Origin: a virus
IMG/VR virus record: IMGVR_UViG_3300004184_000006
Span: 1 to 64,000 of that record
Direction: 5' to 3' (one strand)
Length of the DNA: 64,000 nucleotides
The stretch's first letter is position 1. Each line of letters begins with the position of its first letter. Position numbers and translations under genes: made by a program. The notes beneath the pieces are model-generated. The model was not told the origin of the DNA, searched no databases, and saw only the letters and a list, made by a program, of their open reading frames with translations. Shown one piece after another: positions 3,729 through 45,044 of this stretch.

Positions 3729-3768
3729 AGTTTAATCAGTGCCTAGTCGGTTATTAGGTGGGTTTTTC
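3729..3768 (-). promoter_or_regulatory. Putative late promoter 1 (baseplate/fibre operon), apparently leaderless
   Basis: GAAAAACCC (3768-3760), 25 nt spacer, TAAACT (3734-3729), then 7 nt to ATG 3721. Confidence 0.8.
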
Positions 3769-3778
3769 CTGATTTTAT

Positions 3779-3807
3779 TTGACAGAGTTAATTATCGGGA
3801 ATATGCT
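3779..3807 (+). promoter_or_regulatory. Sigma70-type promoter for the C4-RNA / secreted-protein unit
   Basis: TTGACA-17 nt-TATGCT. Confidence 0.75.
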
Positions 3808-3907
3808 TATCTCGCTTTCACCGCATTGTGGAAGTCGGGAATGCAACCCCGCAATTACAAAACGGATGCCAGCGCATCACGCGCTTTTTTTATGCCCGTC
3901 AGTTTAT

Positions 3908-3983
3908 GATGGTCTGGCACAGGCTCACTTCGCGGTGAGGCCGCTTCTGTTTTGGCGGTAGTTGCATCCTGTGTCAGATTGTC
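3908..3983 (+). ncRNA. C4-type (P1 c4 / P4 CI-like) antisense RNA
   Basis: 16-bp closing stem GATGGTCTGGCACAGG/CCTGTGTCAGATTGTC enclosing two hairpins. Loop TTCTGTTTTG is complementary to CAAAACGGA upstream and CAAAACAGGA downstream; unpaired GTTGCAT is complementary to ATGCAAC upstream and GCAAC downstream. Confidence 0.8.
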
Positions 3984-4034
3984 GCCCAACGCAACACCAA
4001 GCGACAGTCTTCTTAAATCAAAACAGGAACAACA

Positions 4035-4463
4035 ATGAAAAAGCTAATTTTATGTTTAGCGTTATTAACCGCTACACCATCAATCGCATTCGCCGATGAG
4101 TCAGTTGATTTTAACGCGGTATCGAATGAAATGCTGGGCGCATACAGTATGTACGAAAATGGCTCTACCGCTATGTTGAGTGTTGAAAACAAGTGCTGGA
4201 ACTCGCTACGAAGCGTTGACATGGCGAAGGCTAAAGCCTGTGTTTCGTACACGCTTGCAGGCGGCATTATTGAGGCTACTTATGCAAGATCACAGGGAAG
4301 ACAACCAACGCCAGATTACACGGGTGAGTTTACCGTACCTAGATTCACAAAAAACCTTAAAGCCGCTGGATTTTCAGCATCACAAATAGAAGAAGCAACC
4401 GATTACGTTCATGGCAACAGTAATTTAATTATTATTGGACTTGCTAACGCTGGAATGCGCTAA
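4035..4463 (+). CDS. Secreted/periplasmic protein, function unknown
   Basis: Sec signal MKKLILCLALLTATPSIAFA; two Cys in the mature part. Confidence 0.8.
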   Translation: MKKLILCLALLTATPSIAFADESVDFNAVSNEMLGAYSMYENGSTAMLSVENKCWNSLRSVDMAKAKACVSYTLAGGIIEATYARSQGRQPTPDYTGEFTVPRFTKNLKAAGFSASQIEEATDYVHGNSNLIIIGLANAGMR

Positions 4464-4486
4464 CCTTTAAATCAAAGAGAAAAACA

Positions 4487-4852
4487 ATGAAAAAATTAAT
4501 AGTTTTACTGGGCTTGCTTGTTGCGTTTTCGGCTAGTGCCAAGGATTGTGAAAAAGAAGCTTATGATGGCGGTATGGCAGCCGTTCGAGACTGTATTGCA
4601 TCTCAAAATGAAGATCAAGTAAATAAGGCTTATCAACAGTTATTGCTGGCTCACAAAGGAAGCGATGCAGCCATTCAAGCAGCTAAAGAAGCGCAAGACT
4701 CATGGGGAAAATTCAGGTTTTCCACTTGTGAGTATATTGGAGAAACAGTTAATAAGGACGAACAGGCTGGCTGTATTGATGACTTCAACAAAGCCCGCGT
4801 AAAGATGCTTAATCAGTATGCAAAACAAGCTAAAGAAAACAAATCAAAATAG
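4487..4852 (+). CDS. Secreted LprI-like (DUF1311) lysozyme-inhibitor-family protein
   Basis: Signal peptide; DC...C...N.AYQQL...AQ.SW.KFR..TC...C..DFN.AR pattern matches recalled DUF1311 helices. Confidence 0.7.
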   Translation: MKKLIVLLGLLVAFSASAKDCEKEAYDGGMAAVRDCIASQNEDQVNKAYQQLLLAHKGSDAAIQAAKEAQDSWGKFRFSTCEYIGETVNKDEQAGCIDDFNKARVKMLNQYAKQAKENKSK

Positions 4853-4979: not shown

Positions 4980-5010
4980 ATTGCCTATCAATTTGTGACT
5001 AGATGGCTAT

Positions 5011-9138: not shown

Positions 9139-9561
9139 TTACCTTGGGTCGATGTGGCCGCGTCTCTCTATGACGCTGGTTAGTAGTGTTGACAGCTCTC
9201 TAAATGCCGCAGTGCTTTCTTTGCGGTCGTTTTGAGCCATGACAGACAGCTTTTCTATTTGATCGGTAAATTGTCTGGTTATGCGCTCAATTGTTTCAGA
9301 GTGCATTTTGTCTTTGGCTTCATGCACCTTGTCATTATCCCTAATAACCCTTTCCATTTGGTCGGCGTGGGCATTCGACTTTAAGTCGCTTGCTTTCATC
9401 ATTTGCCATAAAACCAGCAAAAGTGCCACGCAAAAACCAGCAAAATACATATCCTTGTTGATAAGCGCATCAATTGCCCCAGACGGTTCGACGGTACTGG
9501 CCGCCGCCGTACTCACAAACCCAATGATAAAGAGCTTATAAAGTCTAATCTGTTTCTTCAT
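9139..9561 (-). CDS. Membrane protein (holin- or spanin-like)
   Basis: Two N-terminal hydrophobic segments followed by a coiled coil. Confidence 0.45.
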   Translation of the reverse strand: MKKQIRLYKLFIIGFVSTAAASTVEPSGAIDALINKDMYFAGFCVALLLVLWQMMKASDLKSNAHADQMERVIRDNDKVHEAKDKMHSETIERITRQFTDQIEKLSVMAQNDRKESTAAFRELSTLLTSVIERRGHIDPR

Positions 9562-22720: not shown

Positions 22721-22786
22721 AACTAGCCTCGTGTGTAATTGAGGCTAGTTTATAGGGGTGTTAGCGGGTGTTTTATTGGGTTTTTA
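22721..22786 (-). promoter_or_regulatory. Putative late promoter 3 (darB operon) with RBS-occluding hairpin
   Basis: TAAAAACCC (22786-22778)-N25-TAAACT (22752-22747); perfect 10-bp stem AACTAGCCTC/GAGGCTAGTT abutting the ATG. Confidence 0.85.
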
Positions 22787-23342: not shown

Positions 23343-23543
23343 TTAGCTATGCTCATTCTTTACCACCTTGATAGTGTGCGTTAGTAGTGGGCATTCAGCG
23401 TGCCTTGTATCTGCATCAACATTGTCCTTAATAGGCAAGTCCTTATCTAAGTAACAATAATACAAATACCCATTGGTTTCATGAGAAAAAGGGCATTTAT
23501 GACACCCGCTGGAAACTATTACTTTTTCTGGCAATTCACTCAT
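23343..23543 (-). CDS. Small Cys-rich hypothetical protein
   Basis: C..CPF...C...CPL pattern, common in phages. Confidence 0.55.
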   Translation of the reverse strand: MSELPEKVIVSSGCHKCPFSHETNGYLYYCYLDKDLPIKDNVDADTRHAECPLLTHTIKVVKNEHS

Positions 23544-23758: not shown

Positions 23759-23879
23759 TTTTGAAATCCTTAAGCGTGGATAAAAGTGATAAGCGTATGG
23801 TGTTGTGGCAATACTTGCTTAAGGCACTTTAACGCGGGTAATTAATCCGCGTACAGCCACAACGAGGTAAATTATAACA

Positions 23880-32922: not shown

Positions 32923-32929
32923 GATGTAC

Positions 32930-32992
32930 TATCGCCTTAATATTGTGACGATATTTTAGGCATTATGAGAGGGGTGGAATGATGGGTTTTTC
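32930..32992 (-). promoter_or_regulatory. Putative late promoter 4 (darA operon) with hairpin
   Basis: GAAAAACCC (32992-32984)-N25-TAAAAT (32958-32953); stem TATCGTC/GGCGATA covers the AAGGCG SD-like site. Confidence 0.85.
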
Positions 32993-33007
32993 TTTTTCAA
33001 CAGACAC

Positions 33008-33038
33008 AAAAAACCGCCTTGTTATCAGCGGTTTTTTT
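33008..33038 (-). terminator. Intrinsic terminator after hdf
   Basis: A-tract-CCGC...GCGG-T-tract. Confidence 0.75.
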
Positions 33039-33073
33039 AATATGTTAGTGATTTTTTATTATCACTTACGCCA

Positions 33074-34128: not shown

Positions 34129-34132
34129 GCTA

Positions 34133-34381
34133 TTAAGCGGCCTTTGACCGTAGCCACATTACAGCAACACTGATTGCCGCATCTAGTACGCACTCAAACA
34201 CATCACCAAAAATGACTCTCAGGTCTTTTTTTACCTTGGCGTGCTTTTCGGCATTTGATAGCCCTGCTAGGTTTTCTGAGTCTTTAACAAACATCCGCAC
34301 ATCATTCCATAACCGCGCACCCAGTACGCCTTTCGCTAACTGGCTGATTGCCGCCTGCTTTAATTCAGGTATTAATTGCAT
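34133..34381 (-). CDS. Lysis-cassette protein (holin/antiholin-like)
   Basis: ATG in TGATG overlap; amphipathic helices ending ...LDAAISVAVMWLR. Confidence 0.5.
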   Translation of the reverse strand: MQLIPELKQAAISQLAKGVLGARLWNDVRMFVKDSENLAGLSNAEKHAKVKKDLRVIFGDVFECVLDAAISVAVMWLRSKAA

Positions 34382-34500
34382 CAAAACCTCACATCAATAA
34401 TAGTAATGACAGGCACATCAAATGCACCTGTCTGAATATCGGATTGCGTTGTAGCACAGCCGCTAAGTAGTAAAGCCAGGCTATACGCCCACTTTTTCAC
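34381..34500 (-). CDS. 39-aa lipoprotein (not in ORF track)
   Basis: GTG start, MKKWAYSLALLLSG-CATTQSDIQTGAFDVPVITIIDVRF; lipobox LSGC; overlaps both neighbours. Confidence 0.75.
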   Translation of the reverse strand: MKKWAYSLALLLSGCATTQSDIQTGAFDVPVITIIDVRF

Positions 34501-34726
34501 TGGTTGCAGCCGTTAAATAGGCGTTCACCGCGCCGCCTAGGGTAGCCAATCCGTAGGCGATAGAGTTTAAATCGGTTTCTGGAATTTCGATATTGCCAAA
34601 CTTTAACCCCGCGCCGATGATAATTAGTAGTGCGTTCATCACCAACTGTCTGTTCTTCCATGCTGCCGATGACTTAAGGCTTTCGCCTGCTTTTAATGCG
34701 TCTAACGCTAAAAATATTTTTCCCAT
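34481..34726 (-). CDS. Putative holin
   Basis: 81 aa with two hydrophobic segments directly after the endolysin. Confidence 0.6.
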   Translation of the reverse strand: MGKIFLALDALKAGESLKSSAAWKNRQLVMNALLIIIGAGLKFGNIEIPETDLNSIAYGLATLGGAVNAYLTAATSEKVGV

Positions 34727-34735
34727 TTAATACAC

Positions 34736-35332
34736 CTACTTCAATAATTTGTAATACTTTTTAAAAAGGGCGATACGGTTATCTAAACCATGTGTCCTAC
34801 CGTTTACCCGCTTAGTCACAGCGGTAATAACTTCCACTCGATCCCCTTTGTCGCAAATTGGTAAAATCTCTTTGATATGGAAAAACCAAGCGGCTGATAA
34901 CAAGGGGTATTTAGTGGCAACCAAATCAGGATTTTTAACTAAATTGTCCATAGTTATATCGCTGAATAACCTGAAACTTTCTTTTCCAGTTAGCTGAATA
35001 TAACCTTTTCCAGAATAGTGAAAGCCATCGCCGCTCGCTTCATTGCCGTTGCCCATGCGGTTAGCGTAAGCAATATTAGCAATCCGAACTGGCTTGCGAG
35101 CGCATTCATTGGCTAATTGACGATTAAAGTATTTAGGAAACACCTTAAGCAAGCCCTCTGCTGAATAGTTAAGGTTTTCTCTAATAGCAGTAAACCCAGC
35201 ACTTTCGTGATGACACTGACTTAAAAAGTGTGCCAGTCGCAATGGGGTATTGATTTTGAATTTATCAATGACGGCGGGCAATTCTGCCATTACCGATTTA
35301 GGGGCAACGCCCTGTAGTCCTTCGATGTTCAT
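34736..35332 (-). CDS. Glycoside hydrolase family 19 endolysin
   Basis: RLAHFLSQCHHESAGF, ENLNYS, YANRMGNG, GKGYIQLTGK, SAAWFF, TKRVNG. Confidence 0.92.
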   Translation of the reverse strand: MNIEGLQGVAPKSVMAELPAVIDKFKINTPLRLAHFLSQCHHESAGFTAIRENLNYSAEGLLKVFPKYFNRQLANECARKPVRIANIAYANRMGNGNEASGDGFHYSGKGYIQLTGKESFRLFSDITMDNLVKNPDLVATKYPLLSAAWFFHIKEILPICDKGDRVEVITAVTKRVNGRTHGLDNRIALFKKYYKLLK

Positions 35333-35335
35333 GCT

Positions 35336-35401
35336 AATACCGATAGTTTTTTGTTAGCGGTATTTTATGGTGACTTTTGTAGGTGGAATGGTGGGTTTTT
35401 C
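35336..35401 (-). promoter_or_regulatory. Putative late promoter 5 (lysis-spike-hdf operon) with hairpin
   Basis: GAAAAACCC (35401-35393)-N25-TAAAAT (35367-35362); stem AATACCG/CGGTATT ends 3 nt before the ATG. Confidence 0.85.
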
Positions 35402-35405
35402 CTGA

Positions 35406-36299
35406 TTAACTCGCTACATCCCCTAGCCATAATTTTGTATATTGCTCACTACCACTTGAGTCTAGGCCGCCCTCGAACACATGAGCTGCTGTAATAACTG
35501 CATATTGACCAACGCCCTGTATGTCTATCACATCTCCCGCACAAATACGGGTATCAAAGGCTATTTTATTAATCTCCTTACGCCTTACCAGTACGCGCCC
35601 CATGTTCTGTAACTGCCTTTCATCCTTATTGGGTACAAAGGTAGATTTGCGGGTTTTTGTCTTGTTGCCATAAATGAAATTGCCGTTATCATCAATCGAG
35701 TAAAACGTAGGAATTTCATGACGCTCTAAAAATCCGCTGTCAAAGTCCTTTACTGAGCTGTTTGGCAAGCTCATGACAGGGGTTTGCTTCATCAAATCCT
35801 GCAATCTGAACAATGCCATTTTGCCATTTTTCCACCGAACAACCGCACCTTCTTCCTGTAAGGTCTTGGCAATATCAACCGTAGGATAATGGCCTGCATA
35901 GCAATAAAATCGCTTCACTGGCAGGTCGTTGTCGATAGCCTTTAAGGCTGCCCCGCTTGCTCGATAAATAGCCTGTATCGTGGTTTTTTCTTTGAGTATG
36001 GCGGTCTTTAGAATGAATGAAGCCTTGTAGACAGACTCCAGATAGGCGAATATCTCAATGAATGACATCTCATGTTCGCCTTGGCTTTGCCTGCCCGTTG
36101 GGGCTGCTGACTTGACGATATAAAATCGGTCGCTACCTGCGGTTATTGTTTGCCCTTCTGATAACAGCTTTCGCAATTCATTATCCACGCGAATGATCGC
36201 GTGCAATGTAGCAGGAATGGGAACTAGGTCTGAACGCAGGACGGCTGATTTTATTAAATCGCCGCGAATTTGTTTACCGTTCGATGGTATTAGTATCAT
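35406..36299 (-). CDS. Baseplate hub protein (gp27/GpD-like)
   Basis: 297 aa; C-terminal ICAGDVIDI....Y.VIT.AH.F....YTKLWLG typical of hub proteins. Confidence 0.6.
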   Translation of the reverse strand: MILIPSNGKQIRGDLIKSAVLRSDLVPIPATLHAIIRVDNELRKLLSEGQTITAGSDRFYIVKSAAPTGRQSQGEHEMSFIEIFAYLESVYKASFILKTAILKEKTTIQAIYRASGAALKAIDNDLPVKRFYCYAGHYPTVDIAKTLQEEGAVVRWKNGKMALFRLQDLMKQTPVMSLPNSSVKDFDSGFLERHEIPTFYSIDDNGNFIYGNKTKTRKSTFVPNKDERQLQNMGRVLVRRKEINKIAFDTRICAGDVIDIQGVGQYAVITAAHVFEGGLDSSGSEQYTKLWLGDVAS

Positions 36300-36459
36300 T
36301 ATTCACAGCAATAGGTTCAAAATCAGGGCAGTCTGCCGCCCGTTTCCCTTGCCCTTGCCCTTGGATAATCACCTTATCGGTTGTAAATACCTGAGTATGC
36401 TTAACGCAATCCATTTTTACAGGGCATGAGCCGTTAGTACAGAAAAACCTGCTTTTCAT
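36274..36459 (-). CDS. Small Cys-rich hypothetical protein
   Basis: FCTNGSCPVKMDC...CPDF. Confidence 0.5.
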   Translation of the reverse strand: MKSRFFCTNGSCPVKMDCVKHTQVFTTDKVIIQGQGQGKRAADCPDFEPIAVNNDTNTIER

Positions 36460-36568
36460 TGGTAACGCCTTTTTTTCCAGTTGCTATATGTCTTTTCACG
36501 CCCGCTAAATATAAAAAATATCAGCGTACAAAAGAGCAATACTATGAATATTGCAGTAGGGAAAAGCC

Positions 36569-36982
36569 TCATAAAATACTCACGACTGAGCATGAAAAAG
36601 CCTCGCGCTGCATATTCATCTCACACTGATTTATATCGCCTTGTATCTCAGCAACCGACCGACCGTAAACATCAACACCCAATGACCGACTGGCCTCAAG
36701 CAATACGGCATTTTCTTTCTCAACGTAATAGACAAACAGCGGGCTAATAATCGACCACTCACCAAGACTAATATCGGTTGCGCTGGTTATCGCTGGATAT
36801 GGCGTAGGTGGCACAGGAGCAGGTACGGAAATTGGAATCAATAAATGCACGTCCAATGCCGCGTACCCCTGATAAAAGCGCACAGCCTTTAAAGCAACGG
36901 CGGTTAAATCAGGAGTCTCAAGCATATTACCAGCTAGATGCTCTTCCATGTACCGCGTTACTAAATCAGCTATGGTAGCCAT
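36569..36982 (-). CDS. Putative neck / head-tail protein
   Basis: 137 aa coupled to the tube gene; function inferred from position only. Confidence 0.4.
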   Translation of the reverse strand: MATIADLVTRYMEEHLAGNMLETPDLTAVALKAVRFYQGYAALDVHLLIPISVPAPVPPTPYPAITSATDISLGEWSIISPLFVYYVEKENAVLLEASRSLGVDVYGRSVAEIQGDINQCEMNMQREAFSCSVVSIL

Positions 36983-37491
36983 TAGATGAACTGTGATGTA
37001 GCAGGGATGGTTTCACCGAAATAGTGATAGAACAATGTGCCGCTAATCATCAATGCTTGACTGCGGTTTTCCCAGTCTGTATCGGGGCTATCTGGCACAA
37101 AGAAACAGCCAGTGTAGCGTTTGCCGCCAACATGACGATCAGGCGTGCCGTGATACGCGATACAATCAAATTTACCCGCATTCTGCCCGCTGGTAGCAAG
37201 AATATCCAAGAAAGCCTGCTCAATAACATGCTTTTGCGTTTCGTAAAATGCCAAAGGCCCTTGCATTGCAACTTTTTGTTGTTGCTTTTCCCACCGATTA
37301 AAGCCAACAGGCATGGCTAGGTCAATTTCACCTGCCGCGCCCGCTTCTGCCCAAGGGCATTGCTTGGTTAAAACCCACAGGCTTTCATGACCTGCAATCT
37401 GTAAAGAAAAATCGGATGATATGGCGACCTGCCCAGCGGCAACTGACCTGTCATATAATAGTTTGGCATCGCTTAAAGAATTGTTCGCCAT
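36982..37491 (-). CDS. Tail tube protein (P1 BplB-like)
   Basis: AAGQVAISSDFSLQIAGHESLWVL aligns by eye with recalled P1 BplB AKGERLVSSEFQLTFAGHEDISVL; 169 aa. Confidence 0.7.
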   Translation of the reverse strand: MANNSLSDAKLLYDRSVAAGQVAISSDFSLQIAGHESLWVLTKQCPWAEAGAAGEIDLAMPVGFNRWEKQQQKVAMQGPLAFYETQKHVIEQAFLDILATSGQNAGKFDCIAYHGTPDRHVGGKRYTGCFFVPDSPDTDWENRSQALMISGTLFYHYFGETIPATSQFI

Positions 37492-37510
37492 GTTTAAATC
37501 TCGCTTATGT

Positions 37511-37711
37511 TTAATGTTTCATGCAATTTGCAATCGTTTTGCAAATATTGTTAGTTCCGCTTATCACGCTGTTTAGTCGGTCTAAAACCTCCTTAACCAG
37601 CTTGTAATCGCCTTCTTTGTTCTTTTTCCACCCTTCGTAGGCCTTGCTATTGAATGCCTTATCGACAATGCTCATAGGTAATTCCAATGCGCTATTTATC
37701 GGGGTATTCAT
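37511..37711 (-). CDS. Hypothetical protein
   Basis: 66 aa in late operon. Confidence 0.55.
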   Translation of the reverse strand: MNTPINSALELPMSIVDKAFNSKAYEGWKKNKEGDYKLVKEVLDRLNSVISGTNNICKTIANCMKH

Positions 37712-37736
37712 GTACAGGCTAAGATTAACTACTGCG

Positions 37737-38510
37737 TTAATTTGATCGCTTAGCCAGCTCTCTCGCTGACTTCGATAAACAGGAATGGGGGCGAAATCGT
37801 GTTGGCATTAAATCCAACTCACCCCCTTGCTCATCGCTTGTTTTTGCGGGTAATACGCAAATTCCGTACTGGTCAAAATCAATGGAAACCATGTGGTCCA
37901 GTTTTGGCCTATGGATTCGATAGGCCAGCATCAATGTCTCAAAATCGCTATCTGGATAGGCTAGAAAGGTATTGATGCGATTCTCTAGCCAGTTGTCCAA
38001 GTCCTGTTCTAAATCAAATTTAACGGGCTTTTCATTTTCAGCTATCAGTTGCGCAGCCATACCGCCGACCAACCAGTGCAAGTAACCATCATGGCTAAAT
38101 GAGGTAGTAAGGCGTTCAATTGATTCCGCCATTGCGCCTGTCAAGTGCTGGATAAACCATTTATCACCGCCGTGTTCACCCAACTCAACGCGGGTAAAAT
38201 CAGGCGATAGGTTTAATTCAAAGTCCAGATAGTCATGATAAAAACTATTGTTGCTTGCAGGGAAATTAGGGCCATCCAATCTGGTGTAGGACATATACCA
38301 ACTAACCGCTGTTATGCGCTCCTGAGCTGTCCAATTAATGGGGTCATCATCAACACCCTTAACTGACTTAATCGCATGTCTTAGTAACTGTGTCGTGGTG
38401 GACTCAAGTTTGGTGGCATCAATGCCAGCTAATTCAATCGCTTGGTTAAAGGTCAATTCCTTTAGCTCTATCGTGAATCGGTTGGTGCGCAATTGAGGTA
38501 GGGTTATCAC
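37737..38510 (-). CDS. Putative tail/baseplate assembly chaperone
   Basis: MITLPQL...IELKELTF start resembles T4 gp26-like chaperones; first gene after late promoter 6. Confidence 0.5.
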   Translation of the reverse strand: MITLPQLRTNRFTIELKELTFNQAIELAGIDATKLESTTTQLLRHAIKSVKGVDDDPINWTAQERITAVSWYMSYTRLDGPNFPASNNSFYHDYLDFELNLSPDFTRVELGEHGGDKWFIQHLTGAMAESIERLTTSFSHDGYLHWLVGGMAAQLIAENEKPVKFDLEQDLDNWLENRINTFLAYPDSDFETLMLAYRIHRPKLDHMVSIDFDQYGICVLPAKTSDEQGGELDLMPTRFRPHSCLSKSARELAKRSN

Positions 38511-38516
38511 AGGATT

Positions 38517-38582
38517 CCGTTACTAAGGTTTGGATTAGCAACAGTTTAATGAATGGATACATGGATAAATGGCGGGTTTTTC
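38517..38582 (-). promoter_or_regulatory. Putative late promoter 6 with hairpin
   Basis: GAAAAACCC (38582-38574)-N25-TAAACT (38548-38543); 10-bp stem CTGTTGCTAA/TTAGTAACGG (two G-U pairs). Confidence 0.85.
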
Positions 38583-38597
38583 TTTTTTGGCGGGCAT

Positions 38598-38621
38598 AAA
38601 AAAACCGCCGTGAAGCGGTTT
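38598..38621 (-). terminator. Intrinsic terminator after antirepressor
   Basis: AAACCGC-ttcacg-GCGG-T7 on minus strand. Confidence 0.75.
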
Positions 38622-38637
38622 CTTTAGTTTGATTAAG

Positions 38638-39327
38638 CTATGCAACTGCTTCCAGCTTGGCTACGCGATAGCGTTTTTCAAAATACACCTGTCCCTTCCC
38701 TGTGATAAGTGTTTTAAAGCTTGGGTGCGATACGCCGTTATTATCAACGTGAGGCGTTTGCTCAATGGAAACCAGTAGCCCCCTGTCAATTGCGCTTTGA
38801 TACGGGCGGTTGTTTGCCATTAAGAATTTATCATTGCGTAGCAGCATGAACAGCCTATTCTGGCCTGTACCGATAACCTTGGCGAAATCACCAACTGATA
38901 CCTTGCCATCGGTATTGCGCACCGCTTCGGCAAACTCAACTTTTGGCTTGTCTGATTCTATTTTTAATTGCAGGGATTGTTTTTCGGTTTCTGATTGCAC
39001 TAATGCAGTAAGTGCTTCAAGGTAGCTTGTGGGTAGTTTTGGCTGTACGGCCTCAAGCTCTAGCCATCTATCAACTATAGCCGCCCTATATTTGACTGAA
39101 TAACCGCTAACCAGAATATCGCATTCTCTGCGCGGAAGGTTAAAACATGGTAAATCCTTGTTTTGCTTTGATTTATAAGAGCCGCGAAAAACCGCGTGTC
39201 CTATTTCAAGCTCATCAAGCATTTTGCGAATATCGACAAGAACCTTGTCATGGTCTTTTTCTGTCAGCTTAGCAATCTCTAAAGATGACATGGTTTGTGT
39301 GGCCGTGGTGCTTAGTAAATTTTGCAT
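38638..39327 (-). CDS. Rha-family N-terminus plus KilAC/ANT C-terminus antirepressor
   Basis: MSSLEIAKLTEKDHDKVLVDIR, LPTSYLEAL, KPKVEFAEAV, IGTGQNRLF, ITGKGQVY. Confidence 0.88.
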   Translation of the reverse strand: MQNLLSTTATQTMSSLEIAKLTEKDHDKVLVDIRKMLDELEIGHAVFRGSYKSKQNKDLPCFNLPRRECDILVSGYSVKYRAAIVDRWLELEAVQPKLPTSYLEALTALVQSETEKQSLQLKIESDKPKVEFAEAVRNTDGKVSVGDFAKVIGTGQNRLFMLLRNDKFLMANNRPYQSAIDRGLLVSIEQTPHVDNNGVSHPSFKTLITGKGQVYFEKRYRVAKLEAVA

Positions 39328-39338
39328 TTGATAACCTT

Positions 39339-39433
39339 TTGAACGATAGGTTGTTGAACGATAGTGGAGTACGGAGGTCCTTGTTCAAGGGATTTTCAGC
39401 CGCTAAGCCTATCCGTACAGGTTTATTGTATCA
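39339..39433 (-). promoter_or_regulatory. Extended -10 promoter and structured leader of the antirepressor
   Basis: TGaTACAAT (39433-39425); stem GTACGGA/TCCGTAC (39418-39369) with inner hairpin; two direct repeats CTATCGTTCAA before the RBS. Confidence 0.65.
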
Positions 39434-39440
39434 CTAAAGC

Positions 39441-40226
39441 TTATTTTTTGTTTCTAAATTTAGACCAATCATCTTTATCAATGGCTGTTAATGAATTTAG
39501 CTTAATTTGCACGGTTAAACTGGTAAAGTCGCCGTTCTTATCAACTGGTGACGCGGTGTCAAAGCTAACGCTCTCGATTACCATAGGGCTTATGGTCATG
39601 CCCTTATAATTCAAGGCAATCATTACAGGTGACTTAGAAGGCAACAGCACATTAATTGCATCCTCTTTGCCTTTTATGCCATCAATACCCCTGCTTAATA
39701 GCGTGGATTGGTCAGCTAGTTTTTGTGGAAGCGACCATGCCATAATTTGCGACAGTGGTGACATAACTTCCATCTTTGGATCACGCCACGCCCTAAAGAA
39801 CAGGTTTATCGGGTAATCTAAAGGCGGCATTCCACTGAAAACTTGGACGCTGTTCAGTTTTGTAATGCCCGTGCGCCCCTCAAACTGCTTAAGGAAGTCA
39901 CCTGCTTCTTTGCCAGATTTTGACTCCTTACCCTGCAATGCATCAACAACGGGTTGCAATGCCCCGCTTTGTAACATCGCCAAGAGCATGGGGGCTTTAG
40001 ATTCAGCCCCCGAACTTTCAAAAGGCGATTGCCAGTTCAAAGAAACACTTAACTGTGCGCCGTCCACTAGCGGTGCTTTTACAGTTATGTCCTCAGTCCC
40101 TTTGGGACGCTTACCATCACGATCAACCTCATAGATAGTAGCAATCAAATGAGGCGATAAGCCATCCCACAACGAACTCAGTGCTGGAGTAGTAGGCTTA
40201 TCTTGTTGACCGTTTTGAACTGGCAT
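39441..40226 (-). CDS. Baseplate / tube-initiator-like protein
   Basis: NWQSPFE, QVFSGMPP, MVIESVSF....PVD.NG motifs of gp48/gp54-like proteins. Confidence 0.55.
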   Translation of the reverse strand: MPVQNGQQDKPTTPALSSLWDGLSPHLIATIYEVDRDGKRPKGTEDITVKAPLVDGAQLSVSLNWQSPFESSGAESKAPMLLAMLQSGALQPVVDALQGKESKSGKEAGDFLKQFEGRTGITKLNSVQVFSGMPPLDYPINLFFRAWRDPKMEVMSPLSQIMAWSLPQKLADQSTLLSRGIDGIKGKEDAINVLLPSKSPVMIALNYKGMTISPMVIESVSFDTASPVDKNGDFTSLTVQIKLNSLTAIDKDDWSKFRNKK

Positions 40227-40232
40227 AAACCG

Positions 40233-40937
40233 TTATTTCAAGCCAGTTTTAACGCGCATACGCATTGACTTAGCTCGCTTCATCATCGCGCCCGCGCTAT
40301 GGCTTTTCATGCCAGCTTTGCGGATTGCCGCTTTTTGTGCGCCTGACAAATGAACAGAACCGCTGATACGCTTGTTAATGCGTACTTTTTTGCCGCCGCG
40401 AATCACTGTACGTTTTTTGTACACTGCATCAAGAATTTCATCTTCAACGCTACGCGAACCCGCCTTATCAAGAAAAGCGAATGAGTCCATATCGTCACCC
40501 GCCGCGTCGTCATCTGGCAGTTCTTCAATGAGCAAATCACGAACACGGTTAGCCGTTTCTTCGTCATCTAGTACATTAATCGCATCAGCCTCATCAACGC
40601 CGTGTAACAGCATATAATCAACTGCAAACCCAGCAACAATATCAAAAGCGTCAGCTTCGTCTTCGTCGATTTCGCCATTTTTGTTAGCATCAATAATGCC
40701 GATAAGTAATGCCTGCAATCTGTCTGCAAACGTCTCGCCTTCTGCTAACGGAACATCCGCGTCTGCCCATTGCTGGATAGCCGCCGCCGCTTTCAGCTTT
40801 AAGTCTGAAACAGCATAATCCGCTACGCCATCTAAAAATGGCTGTTCTTTTTCTTTTTTACCAGTGTCACAGCCATCCAAGATAGGCTTATCCTTTCTTA
40901 GTAGTCTGGCTCTGGCTTCTTCCGTTAAAAATCCCAT
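40233..40937 (-). CDS. Prohead core / scaffold-like protein
   Basis: Very acidic body and very basic tail (LSGAQKAAIRKA...KRAKSMRMR..TGL) reminiscent of T4 gp68. Confidence 0.6.
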   Translation of the reverse strand: MGFLTEEARARLLRKDKPILDGCDTGKKEKEQPFLDGVADYAVSDLKLKAAAAIQQWADADVPLAEGETFADRLQALLIGIIDANKNGEIDEDEADAFDIVAGFAVDYMLLHGVDEADAINVLDDEETANRVRDLLIEELPDDDAAGDDMDSFAFLDKAGSRSVEDEILDAVYKKRTVIRGGKKVRINKRISGSVHLSGAQKAAIRKAGMKSHSAGAMMKRAKSMRMRVKTGLK

Positions 40938-40940
40938 CTG

Positions 40941-42797
40941 TTACACCAATGTTTGAGTTAGGTAAATTTGTCTGGTCGTGCCGACAAAGCAGGGGTAAAT
41001 GTTTATGACAACCGCATCAACCAGTACGCCATGCGGTGCAACTTCATAGGCAAAGTAGTCAGTCGCAAATGACGGATTAGTTTCGCTTGGTTCAGTCACC
41101 CAGCCAGCGGCATATAAGTCAGCTCGCATTTGATGCAGGAACTCACCCATTTTTTTAACAACGGTATTGATGTCTTTTTGCAGAATGTCTTTACCGTAAC
41201 GGGTAATTCTTTCCTGTACATCAACCGACATATCAATGACTGAGAATAGCTTGCGCTTGCTGTTAGATACCGCCGCGCCTGTTAATGAGTCAAAGAATAC
41301 ATAACGGAATCCGCCTGTGTAAGTCTCACCAATGACAGGGTTGATATGCGCCTTTGCCAAGTCGTTTTTATCAAAGTTTGTAACCTGAACAAGTTGCGTG
41401 ATGTTTTGGTTGTACAAAGGATAATCGCGCCCTGCAATCGGGTTTTTCTTATTTTCACAGTAGCCACGCGCGTTTTTCATCGCGTTTCTACGACATGCGT
41501 AAGCAATCAGCAACGTGGCCCTACCAATGATGGTCTTGCCATTAATACCTGTTGGATCGGTCAACTTTAAAGGCGACCAATAAGCAGGCACTAAATCGGA
41601 TGATTCGTAGTTGCCACCGATGTTCAATTGCTCATAAAACGCAATAGCGGCATCTTTTGTTAAGCTACCTGAAATATCAATCGCCAGAATACGGTTTGTG
41701 TCATACGCCAACTGGACCAATTGAGCAATCAAAGCGGGGGCTTGTGAGCCGCCAGAACTGATATAGCCGTAGTTCAGGTTAGTGTTGTGCAACAAGACAC
41801 GCGCTGCCGAATAATCGGCTGTCGTGTAGCCTGTACCGCCCTCAGTGAAGCAAACCAGCACGCCAGATTTTGACCATGCAGGTTGACCGCTGACACCATA
41901 CCCGTAAGCTGGAGAGCCAACAGGAATACTGGTAATGGTTGCACCAACACTAACCTCTACCGCGTCAGTTTGCTGACTAACAACATCAGGAAGGTAAATG
42001 GAGTTTTGATAATCATCAAGTGCCGCTGGATCAAGTGAGCCAGTGAAGTCATACAGCGGGTTATTGTCTTTGTCTTTAATAACGAGACGAATAACACCGT
42101 TGGCCGCGCTTACACCGCCTACCCGTTTATCTTCGGCATGAATTTCACACTGAATGCCGTCGTTAAAGCACTCAAGATGCTTAATGGCTAAAAGATAAGG
42201 CGTTACTGGAATAGTTGTTACTGCCGACCATGCAATAGGGTTAGCAATACTAATAGTAGGGGCAACTGTATAGCCTGTGCCGCCCGCTGAAATAGTCACG
42301 CCAGTAATAACGCCAGCCGTAGCGGTAATAGTACCCACTGCGCCCGTGCCAACACCTGTAAAGGTCAGTGTTTGACCTGTCACATAGCCCGTACCACCAT
42401 TAGTGATGGTAACGGATGACTGAACAACGCCAGCAAGCACGGTTGGCGTTAGAACAGCTCCAACACCCATAGTCGCTACAGCATACTTAACGACCGCCGA
42501 ACTGGTTACTAACCGCTGAACGACTGCCTCATACGCACCTTTGTTCAAGGCCTCTATGATATGCACCCACGCTTCATTTAGCGCGGATAATCGCATAGTT
42601 TCGCCTTTGCCTAATTTCTTGTAGGCATTAGACCGATTAACAGCAAACGGTTTGTCTATGCGACCGCGTGTCAATCGACACATGATCGCAAAGTTTTGGT
42701 CATAATTATCAACCGTTGGCGTTTCTGAGCGATCTTGGAGCGGGTTGTACTGGACACCCGACTCCGCGCCTAATTGTCTAACAAATGATACTGTCAT
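40941..42797 (-). CDS. Contractile tail sheath protein
   Basis: 618 aa downstream of capsid; RGRIDKPF, PIAG.DYP, DLAKAHINPV motifs. Confidence 0.8.
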   Translation of the reverse strand: MTVSFVRQLGAESGVQYNPLQDRSETPTVDNYDQNFAIMCRLTRGRIDKPFAVNRSNAYKKLGKGETMRLSALNEAWVHIIEALNKGAYEAVVQRLVTSSAVVKYAVATMGVGAVLTPTVLAGVVQSSVTITNGGTGYVTGQTLTFTGVGTGAVGTITATAGVITGVTISAGGTGYTVAPTISIANPIAWSAVTTIPVTPYLLAIKHLECFNDGIQCEIHAEDKRVGGVSAANGVIRLVIKDKDNNPLYDFTGSLDPAALDDYQNSIYLPDVVSQQTDAVEVSVGATITSIPVGSPAYGYGVSGQPAWSKSGVLVCFTEGGTGYTTADYSAARVLLHNTNLNYGYISSGGSQAPALIAQLVQLAYDTNRILAIDISGSLTKDAAIAFYEQLNIGGNYESSDLVPAYWSPLKLTDPTGINGKTIIGRATLLIAYACRRNAMKNARGYCENKKNPIAGRDYPLYNQNITQLVQVTNFDKNDLAKAHINPVIGETYTGGFRYVFFDSLTGAAVSNSKRKLFSVIDMSVDVQERITRYGKDILQKDINTVVKKMGEFLHQMRADLYAAGWVTEPSETNPSFATDYFAYEVAPHGVLVDAVVINIYPCFVGTTRQIYLTQTLV

Positions 42798-42799
42798 TG

Positions 42800-43201
42800 T
42801 TATTTAGCCTTGGCTTTTACACCTGTTGTAACGCCGCTTTCAACTACTGGATCGACCACTGGGTCAACCACGTCTAACACAGGGGCGGCATCTTCCATTA
42901 AGCTGATTTCAATCAACGCCTCGCGTCGATTTAGCTCGGCGATTGCCTCTGCATCACTGACAAAGCGGTGTAGCTCGTCAATAGATGCAAAATTAATCAG
43001 CGTGCTTTTGCCGCTGTCGTCATAACAGGGTGTTAAATGCACACCTTTGAAAACGACAGGGAAATCAGCCAGATTCGTCACCGTAAGCGACAAAGGGAAG
43101 CTTTCTGGAGAAAATGACTTGTTGACGCTTTCACTTGCACTAATGCCAGCAAGTGCCGCAAGACCAATAATCAGAGAGATTTTTTTATATTTTGTATTCA
43201 T
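42800..43201 (-). CDS. Hypothetical structural protein
   Basis: Between capsid and sheath genes, tightly coupled. Confidence 0.55.
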   Translation of the reverse strand: MNTKYKKISLIIGLAALAGISASESVNKSFSPESFPLSLTVTNLADFPVVFKGVHLTPCYDDSGKSTLINFASIDELHRFVSDAEAIAELNRREALIEISLMEDAAPVLDVVDPVVDPVVESGVTTGVKAKAK

Positions 43202-43202
43202 G

Positions 43203-44954
43203 TTACTTCATACCTGTCAGCGTCAATTTAGCGAAAGCTAACGCGCTTTGTTTGTGTGGGTTTACACGCATGAAGTCTTTGCGGAAATAATGAACACCGC
43301 TGTCAGCATTCTTTGTTTTCCCGACTTCAATCATGATTGGCGAAACTGACTGACCAGCGACCAAACCTGAGCGAGCAACATCTTGAGATTGACCGATTAA
43401 CAGAACTTCTGCACTGGTAACTCCGCTGCTGGTAGTTTCTGGTTGATCTGGGTCATAGTAGACTTCAAACTGACCATCAAGAGTACCTAAGCGATAGATA
43501 GATGCACGCGCTCTGATACCAGACGGAACAAAACGACCACCCATAACCAGATTATTTAGCCATGCTGCAACGGTTTTGTTTACATACAAGTGAGTTACGC
43601 CCGTGACGTTAGTTCTTACCGCCATATCTTGAGACGCTACCGCCAAAGGAATGGAAATGTCCTGCATGTTTTGTCCACGAGTTTGTGCGCCCGTGTCTAA
43701 CCACAAGCCCATATCCCATGTGTACGGGTAGCTTGCTGCAATACGTCTTGCATACTGCAATGCAGATTTATGATCTTCGTTACCAAGCTGTAACTGCATT
43801 GAACCCATCAGGTTAGACATTGAGTCCAGGCCAACTTCTCGCGCTAACTGTGCGCTTGCATCGATACCAACGGTAACATTACCGCGTGTTACATTAGCTA
43901 GAAACGTGTAATCAGTAGCGATTAAATCAATTTCAGAAATCAATTCAGGCTGTCTGTTGAAGTCAATTTGACCTTCTACCAAAACAGCTACGCCCACATC
44001 AAGATTAGGTGTTGAAGTAAGCGAATACACACCTGTGTCGTTGTTGATCGTACCGCCGATTTGATAAGTAGTGCTTGCCAGCGTTACCGAACCACTGATA
44101 GTCGATGATGTGTCGGTTTTGCTAATTTCTTTAGCGACTGGAATACCGCCAACATAAACAACCGCCTGACCTTTAACCAGCTTTGCCGCAGTCGCGCCAT
44201 TGGCTACTGTTTCGCATGTTTCGCTGGTTAATTGCACGCTGGTAATTTGACCAGCATGAGTACCTACGCCTAACGCTACAGTGTTTGCCGCTGTTGAAAT
44301 TCTGTTGCTTTTGAAAAAGCGTTTACCAGAATGTACGCCATCCATGTTTTCATTGGCTGCATAACCACCGTTTTTTAGGTGCGATTGATGCTCAACGATG
44401 ATTAACTTACCTTCACCCGATTGAATATCAGTAGGAACCTGCATAATCCAAGGAATAGCGCATGTAAATGTGTTTTGCAATGAAACGATTGCGCGATTAA
44501 TCTGCAATGAGCCGTTGTCTGGCGATACGTTGGTCGCGCTGTCCAAGAAGCTGTCAGTAAATCCCGTTGCAATTTGAACCTTGCGCTGACCTTCGTGTGT
44601 AAACTGATATGCAACATCGACCGCTTGAGCGATTAAGTCAGGAGAAGGCTCTTGACCGTGTGCATCTTCATAACGAGTGATTGAGTCCAGCAACGCCGTA
44701 GTTAAGCGCAACCGATCACCAGGATCCAGTTCTTCGTAAAGTTTTGATAGCTTTTCAGGCATGACGATAGAGCCGTGACCAGCAATAGACTCATTGATTG
44801 CTGTGTTCGCGGTCTCTACGCTGTCTAAAAAGTCGCCTGTGTTGTTTACCTCGCCTAATTTTGAGGTATCACGCAAAGAAGAATAAAAGGCAACCGCCCC
44901 AGTCTTCATGCTTTCAAGATTAGTTTTTCGCGGGGCTTTAATATGTTTACCCAT
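43203..44954 (-). CDS. Major capsid protein (P1 gp23-like)
   Basis: 583 aa, first gene after late promoter 7; IYRLGTLDG.FEVYYDP motif; probable cleaved N-terminal extension. Confidence 0.8.
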   Translation of the reverse strand: MGKHIKAPRKTNLESMKTGAVAFYSSLRDTSKLGEVNNTGDFLDSVETANTAINESIAGHGSIVMPEKLSKLYEELDPGDRLRLTTALLDSITRYEDAHGQEPSPDLIAQAVDVAYQFTHEGQRKVQIATGFTDSFLDSATNVSPDNGSLQINRAIVSLQNTFTCAIPWIMQVPTDIQSGEGKLIIVEHQSHLKNGGYAANENMDGVHSGKRFFKSNRISTAANTVALGVGTHAGQITSVQLTSETCETVANGATAAKLVKGQAVVYVGGIPVAKEISKTDTSSTISGSVTLASTTYQIGGTINNDTGVYSLTSTPNLDVGVAVLVEGQIDFNRQPELISEIDLIATDYTFLANVTRGNVTVGIDASAQLAREVGLDSMSNLMGSMQLQLGNEDHKSALQYARRIAASYPYTWDMGLWLDTGAQTRGQNMQDISIPLAVASQDMAVRTNVTGVTHLYVNKTVAAWLNNLVMGGRFVPSGIRARASIYRLGTLDGQFEVYYDPDQPETTSSGVTSAEVLLIGQSQDVARSGLVAGQSVSPIMIEVGKTKNADSGVHYFRKDFMRVNPHKQSALAFAKLTLTGMK

Positions 44955-44957
44955 TTT

Positions 44958-45044
44958 ATTTACCTGTGTGTGTGAAAATTTGAGGCCCTTTGTGGGCTAG
45001 GTAAATTATGAGCGGGTGGTATACGGGCAAAATGCGGGTTTTTC
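44958..45044 (-). promoter_or_regulatory. Putative late promoter 7 (capsid-sheath operon) with hairpin
   Basis: GAAAAACCC (45044-45036)-N25-CATAAT (45010-45005); ATTTACCT pairs with SD-containing AGGTAAAT (44965-44958). Confidence 0.85.

What the first reader, a model, noticed from the sequence alone, without database searches (positions are those of the whole stretch)
3729..45044. Seven late promoters with an invariant (G/T)AAAAACCC-N25-(-10) architecture
Seen in sequence: upstream of the first gene of every minus-strand structural operon (3721 baseplate, 11116 portal, 22720 darB, 32922 darA, 35332 lysin, 38510 chaperone, 44954 capsid) lies GAAAAACCC (TAAAAACCC in the copy overlapping a coding 3' end). 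Exactly 25 nt later comes a -10-like hexamer (TAAACT x3, TAAAAT x2, CATAAT x2), with no -35 consensus. Established: P1 late promoters use an Lpa site near -22, and lambda uses Q antitermination; neither matches this layout. Inference: a phage activator binds an asymmetric box at about -38 to -46, a late-control system I do not recognise. Candidate activators are the LuxR-HTH (53423-53662) and the XRE-HTH protein (48870-49766).
Basis: partly seen in the sequence, partly recalled or inferred. Interest (0 to 1): 0.88.

Follow-up and report, generated by a model that had tools for sequence, protein, structure and literature searches.

The report
Conserved phage late promoters, XRE activator
Seven late-gene promoters of a little-studied temperate phage share a fixed upstream box and a -10 element, the same design recurs in about a hundred distant relatives, and it is most likely switched on by a conserved, so far unnamed helix-turn-helix protein.

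Summary
Exactly seven minus-strand sites have (G/T)AAAAACCC, 25 nt, then TAAACT, TAAAAT or CATAAT. None has a -35. Each sits just before a structural or lysis operon.

I add an invariant CC 9 nt after the box. The design is also family-wide. In 79 of 94 unique related loci the capsid gene is preceded by cG-GAAAA, with 79 of the 84 sites found having a NANAAT-type hexamer 33 or 34 nt on. Controls gave 6, 2 and 0 loci. Relatives carry such sites before orthologous operons. In 11 of 13 genomes the baseplate operon's ATG lies 6-7 nt after the hexamer, which implies a leaderless mRNA.

The likely activator is the XRE-HTH protein at 48870-49766. It is the only non-structural, non-packaging gene kept in all relatives (34 of 35 records), and lies directly upstream of terS in 8 of 8 relatives checked. 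Its recognition helix changes together with the box.

The LuxR-type candidate is not conserved. No Lpa, Mor/C, Ogr, Q or sigma homologue was found.

The logic resembles Mu C or P1 Lpa, but the activator family and site are uncharacterised. Nothing has been tested by experiment.

The parts
3729..3768 (-). Late promoter 1: box GAAAAACCC (3768-3760), CC at 3750-3749, hexamer TAAACT (3734-3729). The ATG at 3721 is 7 nt after the hexamer, so a leaderless or near-leaderless mRNA is likely. It precedes the baseplate operon (97-aa and 496-aa genes).
   Evidence: The leaderless layout is conserved in 11 of 13 genomes.
11148..11187 (-). Late promoter 2: GAAAAACCC-N25-CATAAT, before the portal gene (9545-11116) and the operon down to the 852-aa tape-measure-like gene.
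   Evidence: Orthologous portal promoters occur in records G007 and G017.
22747..22786 (-). Late promoter 3: TAAAAACCC-N25-TAAACT, before the DarB-like 2503-aa gene. The box overlaps the 3' end of ORF 22773-23201.
32953..32992 (-). Late promoter 4: GAAAAACCC-N25-TAAAAT, before the 1279-aa DarA-like gene and the operon down to about 23880.
   Evidence: Orthologous site in G007.
35362..35401 (-). Late promoter 5: GAAAAACCC-N25-TAAAAT, before the endolysin (34736-35332) and the lysis cluster.
38543..38582 (-). Late promoter 6: GAAAAACCC-N25-TAAACT, before the PmgB-like 257-aa gene (37737-38510).
   Evidence: Matching sites before the orthologue in L007, G003 and G010.
45005..45044 (-). Late promoter 7: GAAAAACCC-N25-CATAAT, before the major capsid gene (43203-44954) and the tail sheath operon.
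   Evidence: The orthologous promoter is present in 79 of 94 unique related loci.
48870..49766 (-). Proposed late activator (298 aa). It has an N-terminal beta-rich extension (about residues 1-95, found only in this phage and its closest relatives), an XRE-type HTH (about 100-167), and two long helices (178-239, 250-285) that are modelled as a dimerising four-helix bundle.
53423..53662 (-). LuxR/GerE-type 79-aa HTH protein just after the cro-like gene. It was considered as the activator and disfavoured.
   Evidence: for the family; searches show it is not conserved in relatives.
33008..33037 (-). Intrinsic terminator (11-pair stem plus a T run) ending the lysis operon, 16 nt upstream of the box of promoter 4.
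   Evidence: sequence.
38602..38621 (.). Palindromic terminator-like hairpin with A and T runs on both sides, directly upstream of the box of promoter 6.
   Evidence: sequence.
45062..45087 (.). Palindromic terminator-like hairpin (10 pairs), directly upstream of the box of promoter 7. It ends the early/terminase operon.
   Evidence: sequence.
45560..47670 (-). Terminase genes: TerS-like at 47071-47670 and TerL at 45560-47068. They lie downstream of the XRE gene in the same transcription direction and have no late box. In this phage an HNH endonuclease (47670-48362) and a 176-aa ORF are inserted between the XRE gene and terS.

Best explanation
The seven sites are activator-dependent late promoters read by the host's primary-sigma RNA polymerase.

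Layout. Each has a weak -10 (TAAACT, TAAAAT or CATAAT) and no -35. If the hexamer is placed at -12 to -7, each site carries the box (G/T)AAAAACCC at -46 to -38 and an invariant CC at -28/-27.

Cascade. The early leftward operon starts beside the cro-like gene at about 54035. It ends with the 298-aa XRE-HTH protein (48870-49766) and the terminase genes. That protein probably forms a dimer through a C-terminal four-helix bundle and binds the box. From this fixed position it recruits or stabilises polymerase on the -10, as Mu C and other class II activators do. This switches on seven operons that are otherwise insulated by terminators.

The same design is ancestral to a large clade of temperate myoviruses with P1-like morphogenesis genes: core G-GAAAA, then 33 or 34 nt from the G of GAAAA to the first base of the hexamer.

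Shown: the motif, its statistics, its conservation and phasing, the absence of a -35, and the co-conservation and synteny of the XRE gene.

Inferred: transcription start sites, binding of the XRE protein to the box, and activation.
For: (1) Seven sites and no more, all co-oriented with and 7-50 nt (hexamer to start codon) upstream of late operons.

(2) No -35 element. Terminators lie directly upstream of three boxes.

(3) Phylogenetic footprint. Among 94 unique related loci with 330 nt of capsid-upstream sequence, 79 have a G[GT]AAA-type box followed by a NANNNT-type hexamer. Of the 84 hits, 79 are at spacing 33 or 34. The reverse complement gave 6 loci and two intragenic controls gave 2 and 0, with scattered spacings (sequences). 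These relatives range from 40 to 68% GC and share 30-46% capsid identity.

(4) In 12 full relatives a family PWM finds sites before orthologous operons: capsid, portal, DarA-like, baseplate, PmgB-like and a tail operon. The isolated Xanthomonas phage Rb1 has them too.

(5) In 11 of 13 genomes the first baseplate-operon gene has the box 46-48 nt before its ATG, and a hexamer ending 6-7 nt before it. This places the start site at the start codon and supports the hexamer as a real -10.

(6) Activator. Of 99 ORFs, the XRE gene is the only non-structural, non-packaging one with a match in 11 of 12 full relatives by tblastn. It matches in 34 of 35 records by the more sensitive search, and in 9 of 9 records that are at least 90% complete. 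The next most conserved non-structural genes are an SSB (9 of 12) and RdgC (6 of 12).

(7) The protein is an XRE-family HTH. The profile matches the ImmR DNA-binding domain at E = 1.3e-10. The fold matches ImmR, SinR and P22 c2 DNA-binding domains with TM by target of 0.82-0.86.

(8) A modelled homodimer forms through helices 198-281. Score 0.44, best of 3 controls 0.01. That mark was reached by 20 of 30 proteins solved as pairs of one chain and by 1 of 23 solved as single chains. The runs agree in at least 75% of contacts and the partner's pLDDT is at least 69. My own alignment was used, so the counts hold only roughly.

(9) Covariation. Relatives with the cG-GAAAA box share the helix GY.N.SKL.K.E. 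This phage and L007 have GIS(Q/N)-..L and the box (G/T)AAAAACCC.

(10) Synteny. The gene directly after the XRE gene is a terminase small subunit in 8 of 8 relatives checked. The gap is -1 to 22 nt in 7 and 154 nt in 1. P1 has the same order, lpa-pacA-pacB.

(11) No homologue of a known late regulator was found: Lpa, Mor/C, sigma-70 region 2, Ogr/Delta or Q (own record plus 4 complete relatives).
Against: There is no experimental datum. No start site was mapped and no binding was shown. The metatranscriptome contigs that hold this phage cannot show RNA starts.

The box is asymmetric, while the modelled dimer is two-fold symmetric. How a symmetric XRE dimer reads one half-site is unexplained. 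The second conserved element is only CC.

The covariation of helix and box is a single evolutionary event.

The XRE gene's tight linkage to terS would also fit a packaging-related or terS-regulating role. It is conserved together with the morphogenesis module, so guilt by association is not proof.

Small, fast-evolving activators would escape tblastn.

The box detection regex forces G[GT]AAA. The conservation of those letters is therefore partly built in, although the spacing, position and controls are not.

The A-tract lies where, as I recall it, the proximal UP-element subsite sits (-46 to -38), so part of the signal could be read by the polymerase alpha subunit.
Confidence: 0.55

Rival explanations
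1. The sites are activator-dependent late promoters, but the factor is not the XRE protein. It could be the LuxR-type 79-aa protein in this phage, or a small fast-evolving or polymerase-binding protein in the manner of P1 Lpa. On this reading the XRE protein regulates or assists terS and packaging, or has another role.
For: The XRE gene is always directly upstream of terS, which would suit a packaging-linked role. The LuxR-type protein is a real GerE-family HTH (E = 9.1e-12) with likeness to sigma region 4. Several small ORFs of the early operon have no known family. tblastn cannot see small divergent proteins.
Against: The promoter core and spacing are conserved across the family. The LuxR-type gene has 0 of 12 tblastn matches, and a GerE match over the cut-off in only 2 of 36 records. 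No other early gene is conserved. The highly conserved recognition helix of the XRE protein fits a conserved DNA target, and it changes where the box changes. A separate bona fide TerS is present in 8 of 8 relatives checked.
Confidence: 0.22
2. The box is read by the host, not the phage. It might act as an A-tract UP-like element for the polymerase alpha C-terminal domain, or as the site of a host regulator. Late timing would then come from something else, such as genome copy number or read-through.
For: The A5 tract sits at -45 to -41. As I recall the literature (checked in no call), this coincides with the proximal UP subsite consensus AAAAAARNR at -46 to -38. The hosts of relatives are diverse, yet the core is the same, as would be expected for a contact with conserved polymerase parts.
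Against: The invariant G(G) before the tract, and the CCC and CC after it in this phage, are not part of a UP element. Host-only promoters before lysis and structural genes would be active in lysogens; this is inference. The strict 33/34 phasing and the co-conserved HTH gene point to a dedicated factor. Terminators upstream of three boxes argue against read-through control.
Confidence: 0.1
3. The bipartite motif is the promoter of a phage-encoded sigma factor or RNA polymerase, with the box serving as its upstream element.
For: The 79-aa protein resembles sigma region 4 (PF08281 at E = 3.9e-5, below the cut-off; PHROG 'sigma factor' at 1e-6).
Against: No sigma-70 region 2 match was found in the own record or four complete relatives. 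From the end of the box to the hexamer is 25 nt, about 8 nt more than a sigma -35/-10 spacer. The region-4-like protein is not conserved. The large virion proteins are DarB-like and DarA-like, not polymerases.
Confidence: 0.03

Closest known systems
Phage Mu late promoters and activator C (Mor/C family)
   Same: Several late promoters have a recognisable -10 and no -35. A phage activator site overlaps the -35 region and is centred near -43.5 (abstract of PMC2582627). Here the box centre is at about -42. Both are cascades in which an earlier operon encodes the activator.
   Different: The Mu site is a 16-bp imperfect dyad, whereas this box is asymmetric. No Mor-family match above the cut-off was found in the own record or four relatives. 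The candidate here is an XRE-type HTH with a long helical hairpin.
Phage P1 late promoters and Lpa
   Same: Many dispersed late promoters serve separate morphogenesis, Dar and lysis operons: 11 in P1 (passages of PMC10695390). The morphogenesis genes are related (PmgB-like, DarB-like). The activator gene lies directly upstream of the packaging genes, lpa-pacA-pacB, compared with XRE-terS here.
   Different: The P1 element is a 9-bp '-22 region' 4-9 nt from the -10. Here the box is 25 nt from the -10. No Lpa homologue was found: best phmmer E = 0.68, and no tblastn hit in the related loci.
Lambda-repressor-like (XRE-fold) class II activators: lambda CI at PRM and the C proteins of restriction-modification systems
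   Same: The DNA-binding fold is the same. P22 c2, 434 repressor and C.AhdI, C.BclI and C.Csp231I are among the structural and profile matches. As I recall, these proteins activate from a site abutting the -35 region by touching sigma region 4.
   Different: Those proteins bind palindromic operators as dimers and mostly regulate themselves. Here the site is asymmetric, regulates seven late operons, and the protein carries a different C-terminal four-helix-bundle domain.
RinA-type late activators of Gram-positive temperate phages
   Same: A phage activator is required for late operon transcription and acts at a promoter upstream of terS (abstract start of PMC3152322 as listed). The gene position next to terS is my recollection.
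   Different: The protein family is different, as far as I recall, and no call tested this. RinA controls a single late operon, whereas here there are seven promoters and terS itself has no box.

Membership tests
Activator-dependent (class II-like) sigma-70 promoter | Recognisable -10 hexamer with A at position 2 and T at position 6 | tested here: met
   7 of 7 sites. The family consensus is t.A.AAT. The position is supported by the conserved leaderless ATG in 11 of 13 genomes.
Activator-dependent (class II-like) sigma-70 promoter | No functional -35 hexamer at 16-18 nt | tested here: met
   The best match to TTGACA is 3 of 6 or less at all seven sites. None is picked by the consensus scan.
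Activator-dependent (class II-like) sigma-70 promoter | Conserved protein-binding site overlapping or abutting the -35 region (centre near -41.5) | tested here: inconclusive
   The conserved box at -46 to -38 is at fixed phasing. No binding was tested.
Activator-dependent (class II-like) sigma-70 promoter | Transcription depends on the activator | not testable with these tools
   This needs reporters or in vitro transcription.
P1 Lpa-type late promoter | 9-bp conserved element at about -22, a few nt upstream of the -10 | tested here: not met
   In the P1 annotation the -22 regions lie 4 and 9 nt from the -10. Here the only conserved elements are at -46 to -38 and -28/-27.
P1 Lpa-type late promoter | Lpa homologue encoded | tested here: not met
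   phmmer against 99 ORFs gave a best E of 0.68. tblastn on the genome gave only an 18-residue match at E = 0.004. There were no hits in the related loci.
Mu Mor/C-dependent promoter | Mor/C-family activator | tested here: not met
   PF08765: 0 of 5 records over the cut-off.
Mu Mor/C-dependent promoter | Dyad-symmetric 16-bp site centred at -43.5 | tested here: not met
   The position is similar, but the box has no dyad in this phage. A GAAAA...TTTTC inverted pair is seen only in some capsid promoters of one subgroup.
Lambda Q-type antitermination | Q-family protein and a single late promoter read through terminators | tested here: not met
   PF06530: 0 of 5 records. There are seven separate promoters, three of them directly after terminators. 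Other Q families were not searched.
P2 Ogr/Delta-type late promoter | Ogr/Delta zinc-finger activator | tested here: not met
   PF04606: 0 of 5 records. No CxxC motif occurs in the six small ORFs of 44960-50189 that I inspected.
XRE (lambda-repressor-like) HTH proteins (the candidate activator) | Five-helix XRE-type HTH domain | tested here: met
   The profile matches the ImmR DNA-binding domain at E = 1.3e-10 and SinR at 3.1e-6. Foldseek TM by target is 0.82-0.86 for ImmR, SinR and P22 c2 (E = 2.9e-3 at best, because only about 65 of 298 residues align). No Pfam family reached E of 0.01 or better for the single sequence.
Terminase small subunit (alternative identity of the XRE protein) | It is the only TerS-like gene next to the terminase | tested here: not met
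   A separate gene with clear TerS PHROG matches (E from 7e-8 to 9e-84) follows the XRE gene in 8 of 8 relatives checked. In this phage there is a weak TerS-like ORF at 47071-47670.

The most novel reading that the evidence does not exclude
An unnamed family of XRE-HTH proteins with a four-helix-bundle dimerisation domain is the master late-gene activator of a large, almost unstudied clade of temperate myoviruses of Beta- and Gammaproteobacteria. It would be a non-homologous replacement of P1 Lpa at the same genomic position. It would read a single asymmetric half-site (G-GAAAA, here AAAAACCC) held at a rigid 33/34-nt phase from the -10. At one operon it would drive a conserved leaderless late mRNA.
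Probability: 0.5. Interest if true: 0.65.

Novelty: new variant of a known kind. Interest (0 to 1): 0.55.

Why it matters
It gives a concrete, testable regulatory map for a phage clade seen in over a hundred prophage and metagenome loci. Only one isolate of this clade appeared in the 50,697 GenBank phage records searched.

The map consists of seven promoters, their likely start sites, and one candidate master activator.

If confirmed, it would add a new protein family and site type to the short list of phage late activators (Q, Ogr, Mor/C, Lpa, RinA). It would give a simple sequence signature for calling late operons in such prophages. It would also offer a compact, orthogonal activator-promoter pair with strict spacing rules.

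The general logic, an activator replacing the -35, is not new.

Tried and rejected
Near-identity DNA search of 32000-46000 against GenBank phages found no match.

A single-protein capsid search of viral contigs found no relative. The alignment-based search then worked.

The closest relative studied is L007, at 46% capsid identity.

RNA evidence. One search found 4 metatranscriptome runs holding 21-43% of the sampled words of 35300-45100. Laid on 30000-49999, they give short, low-depth contigs over both late and early genes. One contig crosses the promoter at 35401. Contigs cannot show starts or strands, and DNA carry-over is possible, so nothing follows for start sites.

Upstream regions of the PmgB-like gene in 91 loci: my start-codon heuristic mostly landed in coding sequence, so that table was not used for counts.

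7-mer enrichment in ORF-free upstream regions pointed to CGGAAAA, GGAAAAC or AGGAAAA in 6 of 12 relatives but was noisy in GC-rich records. It served only as a lead.

The family PWM, built from capsid promoters alone, recovers 5 of this phage's 7 sites at 14 bits. It gives 1-8 hits per relative against 0-1.4 in shuffles. It therefore undercounts non-capsid promoters.

A second half-site. A TTTTC inverted copy about 21 nt downstream exists in some capsid promoters of the 33-nt spacing group, but not in this phage or in other operons. It was rejected as a general feature.

Hairpins just after the -10. Four of the 7 sites have z scores of -1.5 to -5.5, and three have none. They were not treated as part of the promoter.

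NCBIfam and Pfam give no named family for the XRE protein beyond weak generic HTH hits. The Atlas search gives only generic XRE clusters.

Paper searches. No hit for Xanthomonas phage Rb1 itself. No hit for late gene + XRE family + activator + bacteriophage + late promoter. The 10 papers listed of 30 that hold the 9-mer with 'promoter' and 'phage' looked unrelated by title. The P1 genome paper under the id I recalled is not held, so P1 details come from the GenBank annotation and passages of PMC10695390 and PMC8198154. No supplements were consulted; those of PMC10695390 may list the P1 late promoter sequences.

Full report
**What is in the window**

The window is the first 64,000 nt of a 72,992-nt IMG/VR virus record, classed as linear and 85% complete by CheckV. 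GC content is 43%.

It is a temperate myovirus. A CI-like S24-peptidase repressor (54091-54789, +) faces a cro-like gene (53754-54035, -). An integrase, RecT, RdgC and SSB lie on the plus strand.

A long leftward early operon follows. It encodes a LuxR/GerE-type 79-aa HTH, a DUF1376 primosomal protein, several orphan ORFs, a 298-aa HTH protein, an HNH endonuclease, and the small and large terminase subunits.

About 45 kb of minus-strand late genes come next. They include the capsid, sheath, a PmgB-like protein, endolysin, a 1279-aa DarA-like and a 2503-aa DarB-like protein, the portal, a tape-measure-like protein and the baseplate.

**Checking the observation**

KAAAAACCC occurs 11 times, against 1.69 +/- 1.22 in shuffles. 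Seven copies, all on the minus strand, are followed after exactly 25 nt by TAAACT (3), TAAAAT (2) or CATAAT (2).

The composite pattern gives 7 minus and 0 plus hits. 300 dinucleotide shuffles gave 4 hits in total. No other spacing between 10 and 40 nt is enriched: 25 nt occurs seven times and 16 nt once.

A PWM from the seven sites separates them (38.9-47.9 bits) from everything else in the whole record (next best 18.8).

None has more than 3 of 6 matches to a -35 at 16-18 nt. A sigma-70 consensus scan misses all four sites in 30-50 kb.

Strong terminator hairpins lie directly upstream of the boxes at 32992, 38582 and 45044. These operons therefore need their own promoters.

With the hexamer at -12 to -7, the box is at -46 to -38 and the CC at -28/-27.

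**Relatives**

The capsid protein has only 16 relatives at E of 1e-10 or less among 5.8 billion clusters. Among 50,697 GenBank phage records, one isolate is a clear relative: Xanthomonas phage Rb1, at 38% identity. A far weaker match is Acinetobacter phage ABMM1, at 22%. The sheath and the HTH protein also find Rb1.

A profile search fetched 80 viral-contig loci, the best of 117, and 35 prophage loci. The latter are in Nitrosomonas, Collimonas, Castellaniella, Pusillimonas, Paraburkholderia and others.

**The promoter is conserved**

Upstream of the capsid gene, most of these loci carry 'aaa.cG GAAAA', followed by a hexamer such as CAGAAT, GAGAAT, GAAAAT or AATAAT.

I then ran a controlled count on 94 unique loci with 330 nt of upstream sequence. 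79 have such a pair, and 79 of the 84 hits are at spacing 33 or 34 nt from the G of GAAAA to the hexamer. This phage has 34. The reverse complement gave 6 loci and two intragenic windows gave 2 and 0, with scattered spacings.

The regex fixes G[GT]AAA, so the identity of those letters is partly built in. The phasing, the location about 100 nt before the ATG, and the controls are not.

I fetched 12 complete relatives. In them, a family PWM finds sites before orthologous late operons: capsid, portal, DarA-like, baseplate, PmgB-like and a tail operon. Rb1 shows at least six such sites in its first 50 kb.

**Leaderless baseplate operon**

In 11 of 13 genomes the 97-aa first gene of the baseplate operon has the box 46-48 nt before its ATG and the hexamer ending 6-7 nt before it.

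A start site 7 nt after a -10 would fall on the start codon. This conserved geometry is independent support that the hexamer is a working -10.

**Which factor?**

I compared all 99 ORFs of the record with the 12 full relatives. The structural genes and TerL are shared by all. The early genes are not shared, including the LuxR-type gene (0 of 12).

The single exception is the 298-aa HTH protein: 11 of 12 by tblastn. A more sensitive search found it in 34 of 35 records and in 9 of 9 that are at least 90% complete. The only other partly shared non-structural genes are an SSB (9 of 12) and RdgC (6 of 12).

GerE-family HTHs above Pfam's cut-off occur in only 2 of 36 records. The LuxR-type candidate cannot explain a family-wide design. 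Its place just after cro suggests a CII-like role instead, which is my inference.

**The XRE protein**

A 26-sequence alignment shows a strongly conserved HTH and a less conserved helical C-terminus. The profile hits XRE-family DNA-binding domains: ImmR at 1.3e-10 and SinR at 3.1e-6.

The AlphaFold model has mean pLDDT 82 and pTM 0.42. It shows a beta-rich N-terminal extension, an XRE HTH at residues 100-167, and two long helices at 178-239 and 250-285. Foldseek matches only the HTH, with TM by target of 0.82-0.86 and no match at E of 0.001 or less.

Two copies of residues 95-298 are modelled as a symmetric dimer through those helices. The score is 0.44 and the best of 3 controls is 0.01. That mark was reached by 20 of 30 proteins solved as pairs of one chain and 1 of 23 solved as single chains. 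The runs agree in at least 75% of contacts and the partner's pLDDT is at least 69. My own alignment was used. The model supports dimerisation but does not show it.

Relatives carrying the cG-GAAAA box share the helix GY.N.SKL.K.E. This phage and L007 have boxes that read (G/T)AAAAACCC, and they have a one-residue-shorter, different helix. This covariation is consistent with the reading but is a single event.

All names given by sources are generic. No curated family fits.

**Synteny**

The gene right after the XRE gene is a clear terminase small subunit in 8 of 8 relatives checked. This holds even where TerL lies 11-28 kb away.

The XRE protein is therefore not TerS. It occupies the slot that lpa holds before pacA in P1.

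This tight linkage is also the main reason for caution, because a packaging-related role cannot be excluded.

**Known systems**

P1 late promoters carry a 9-bp element a few nt from the -10, and no Lpa homologue is present.

No Mor/C, sigma-70 region 2, Ogr/Delta or Q family match was found in this record or four complete relatives.

The nearest functional analogue is Mu: a -10, no -35, and a C site centred at -43.5 (abstract). That site is a dyad and the protein is unrelated.

XRE-fold activators such as lambda CI at PRM or the restriction-modification C proteins work from a similar position. This is my recollection; the fold likeness is.

**Verdict**

That the XRE-HTH protein is the activator is the best-supported inference (about 0.55-0.6).

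The control logic is a known kind. The activator family, its asymmetric site and the rigid phasing are not described in anything I could find. Everything mechanistic awaits start-site mapping, reporters and footprints.

Noticed in passing
window 3721-3734, and the orthologous sites in G001, G002, G003, G007, G008, G010, G011, G014, G017 and G023: The first gene of the baseplate operon starts 6-7 nt after the -10 hexamer in 11 of 13 genomes. This implies a conserved leaderless late mRNA.
   Followed up: partly
window: downstream of the hexamers at 22747, 38543, 45005 and 35362: Hairpins begin within or right after the -10 in 4 of 7 promoters (MFE z scores -5.5, -2.7, -2.6 and -1.5). The other three have none. 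Earlier first-reader notes proposed that these hairpins hide the ribosome-binding region.
   Followed up: partly
related loci, for example L010, L013, L014, L016, L018, L036, L043, L082, L088: Many capsid-gene leaders carry a conserved AGTCGGC about 7 nt after the -10, at or next to the predicted start site. This phage lacks it. Function unknown.
   Followed up: no
window 47670-48870: An HNH endonuclease (PF13392, PHROG 99) and a 176-aa orphan ORF sit between the XRE gene and terS. In relatives the two genes are 0-22 nt apart. This is probably a mobile insertion.
   Followed up: partly
window 48870-49766, residues 1-95: The beta-rich N-terminal extension of the XRE protein is present only in this phage, in L007, and in two database proteins of 64% and 58% identity. 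Other family members are 190-250 aa.
   Followed up: no
window 3779-4852, 11361-12457, 23481-23783 (plus strand): Small plus-strand gene islands lie between minus-strand late operons. None is conserved in the 12 relatives, apart from a weak match of the 142-aa ORF in two. They look like morons.
   Followed up: no
G010, G011, G023, G028 (relatives): The XRE-terS pair lies 11-28 kb from terL in 4 of the 11 relatives in which tblastn found the XRE gene. This is an unusual split of the terminase genes.
   Followed up: partly
window 53423-53662: A 79-aa GerE/LuxR-type HTH sits directly after the cro-like gene, in the position of lambda cII. It is found above the Pfam cut-off in only one other of 35 related records.
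   Followed up: partly
window 30000-49999: Four freshwater-sediment metatranscriptome runs hold short contigs identical to late and early genes of this phage at low depth. Eight DNA runs from similar material hold nearly all of it. No conclusion on expression can be drawn.
   Followed up: partly
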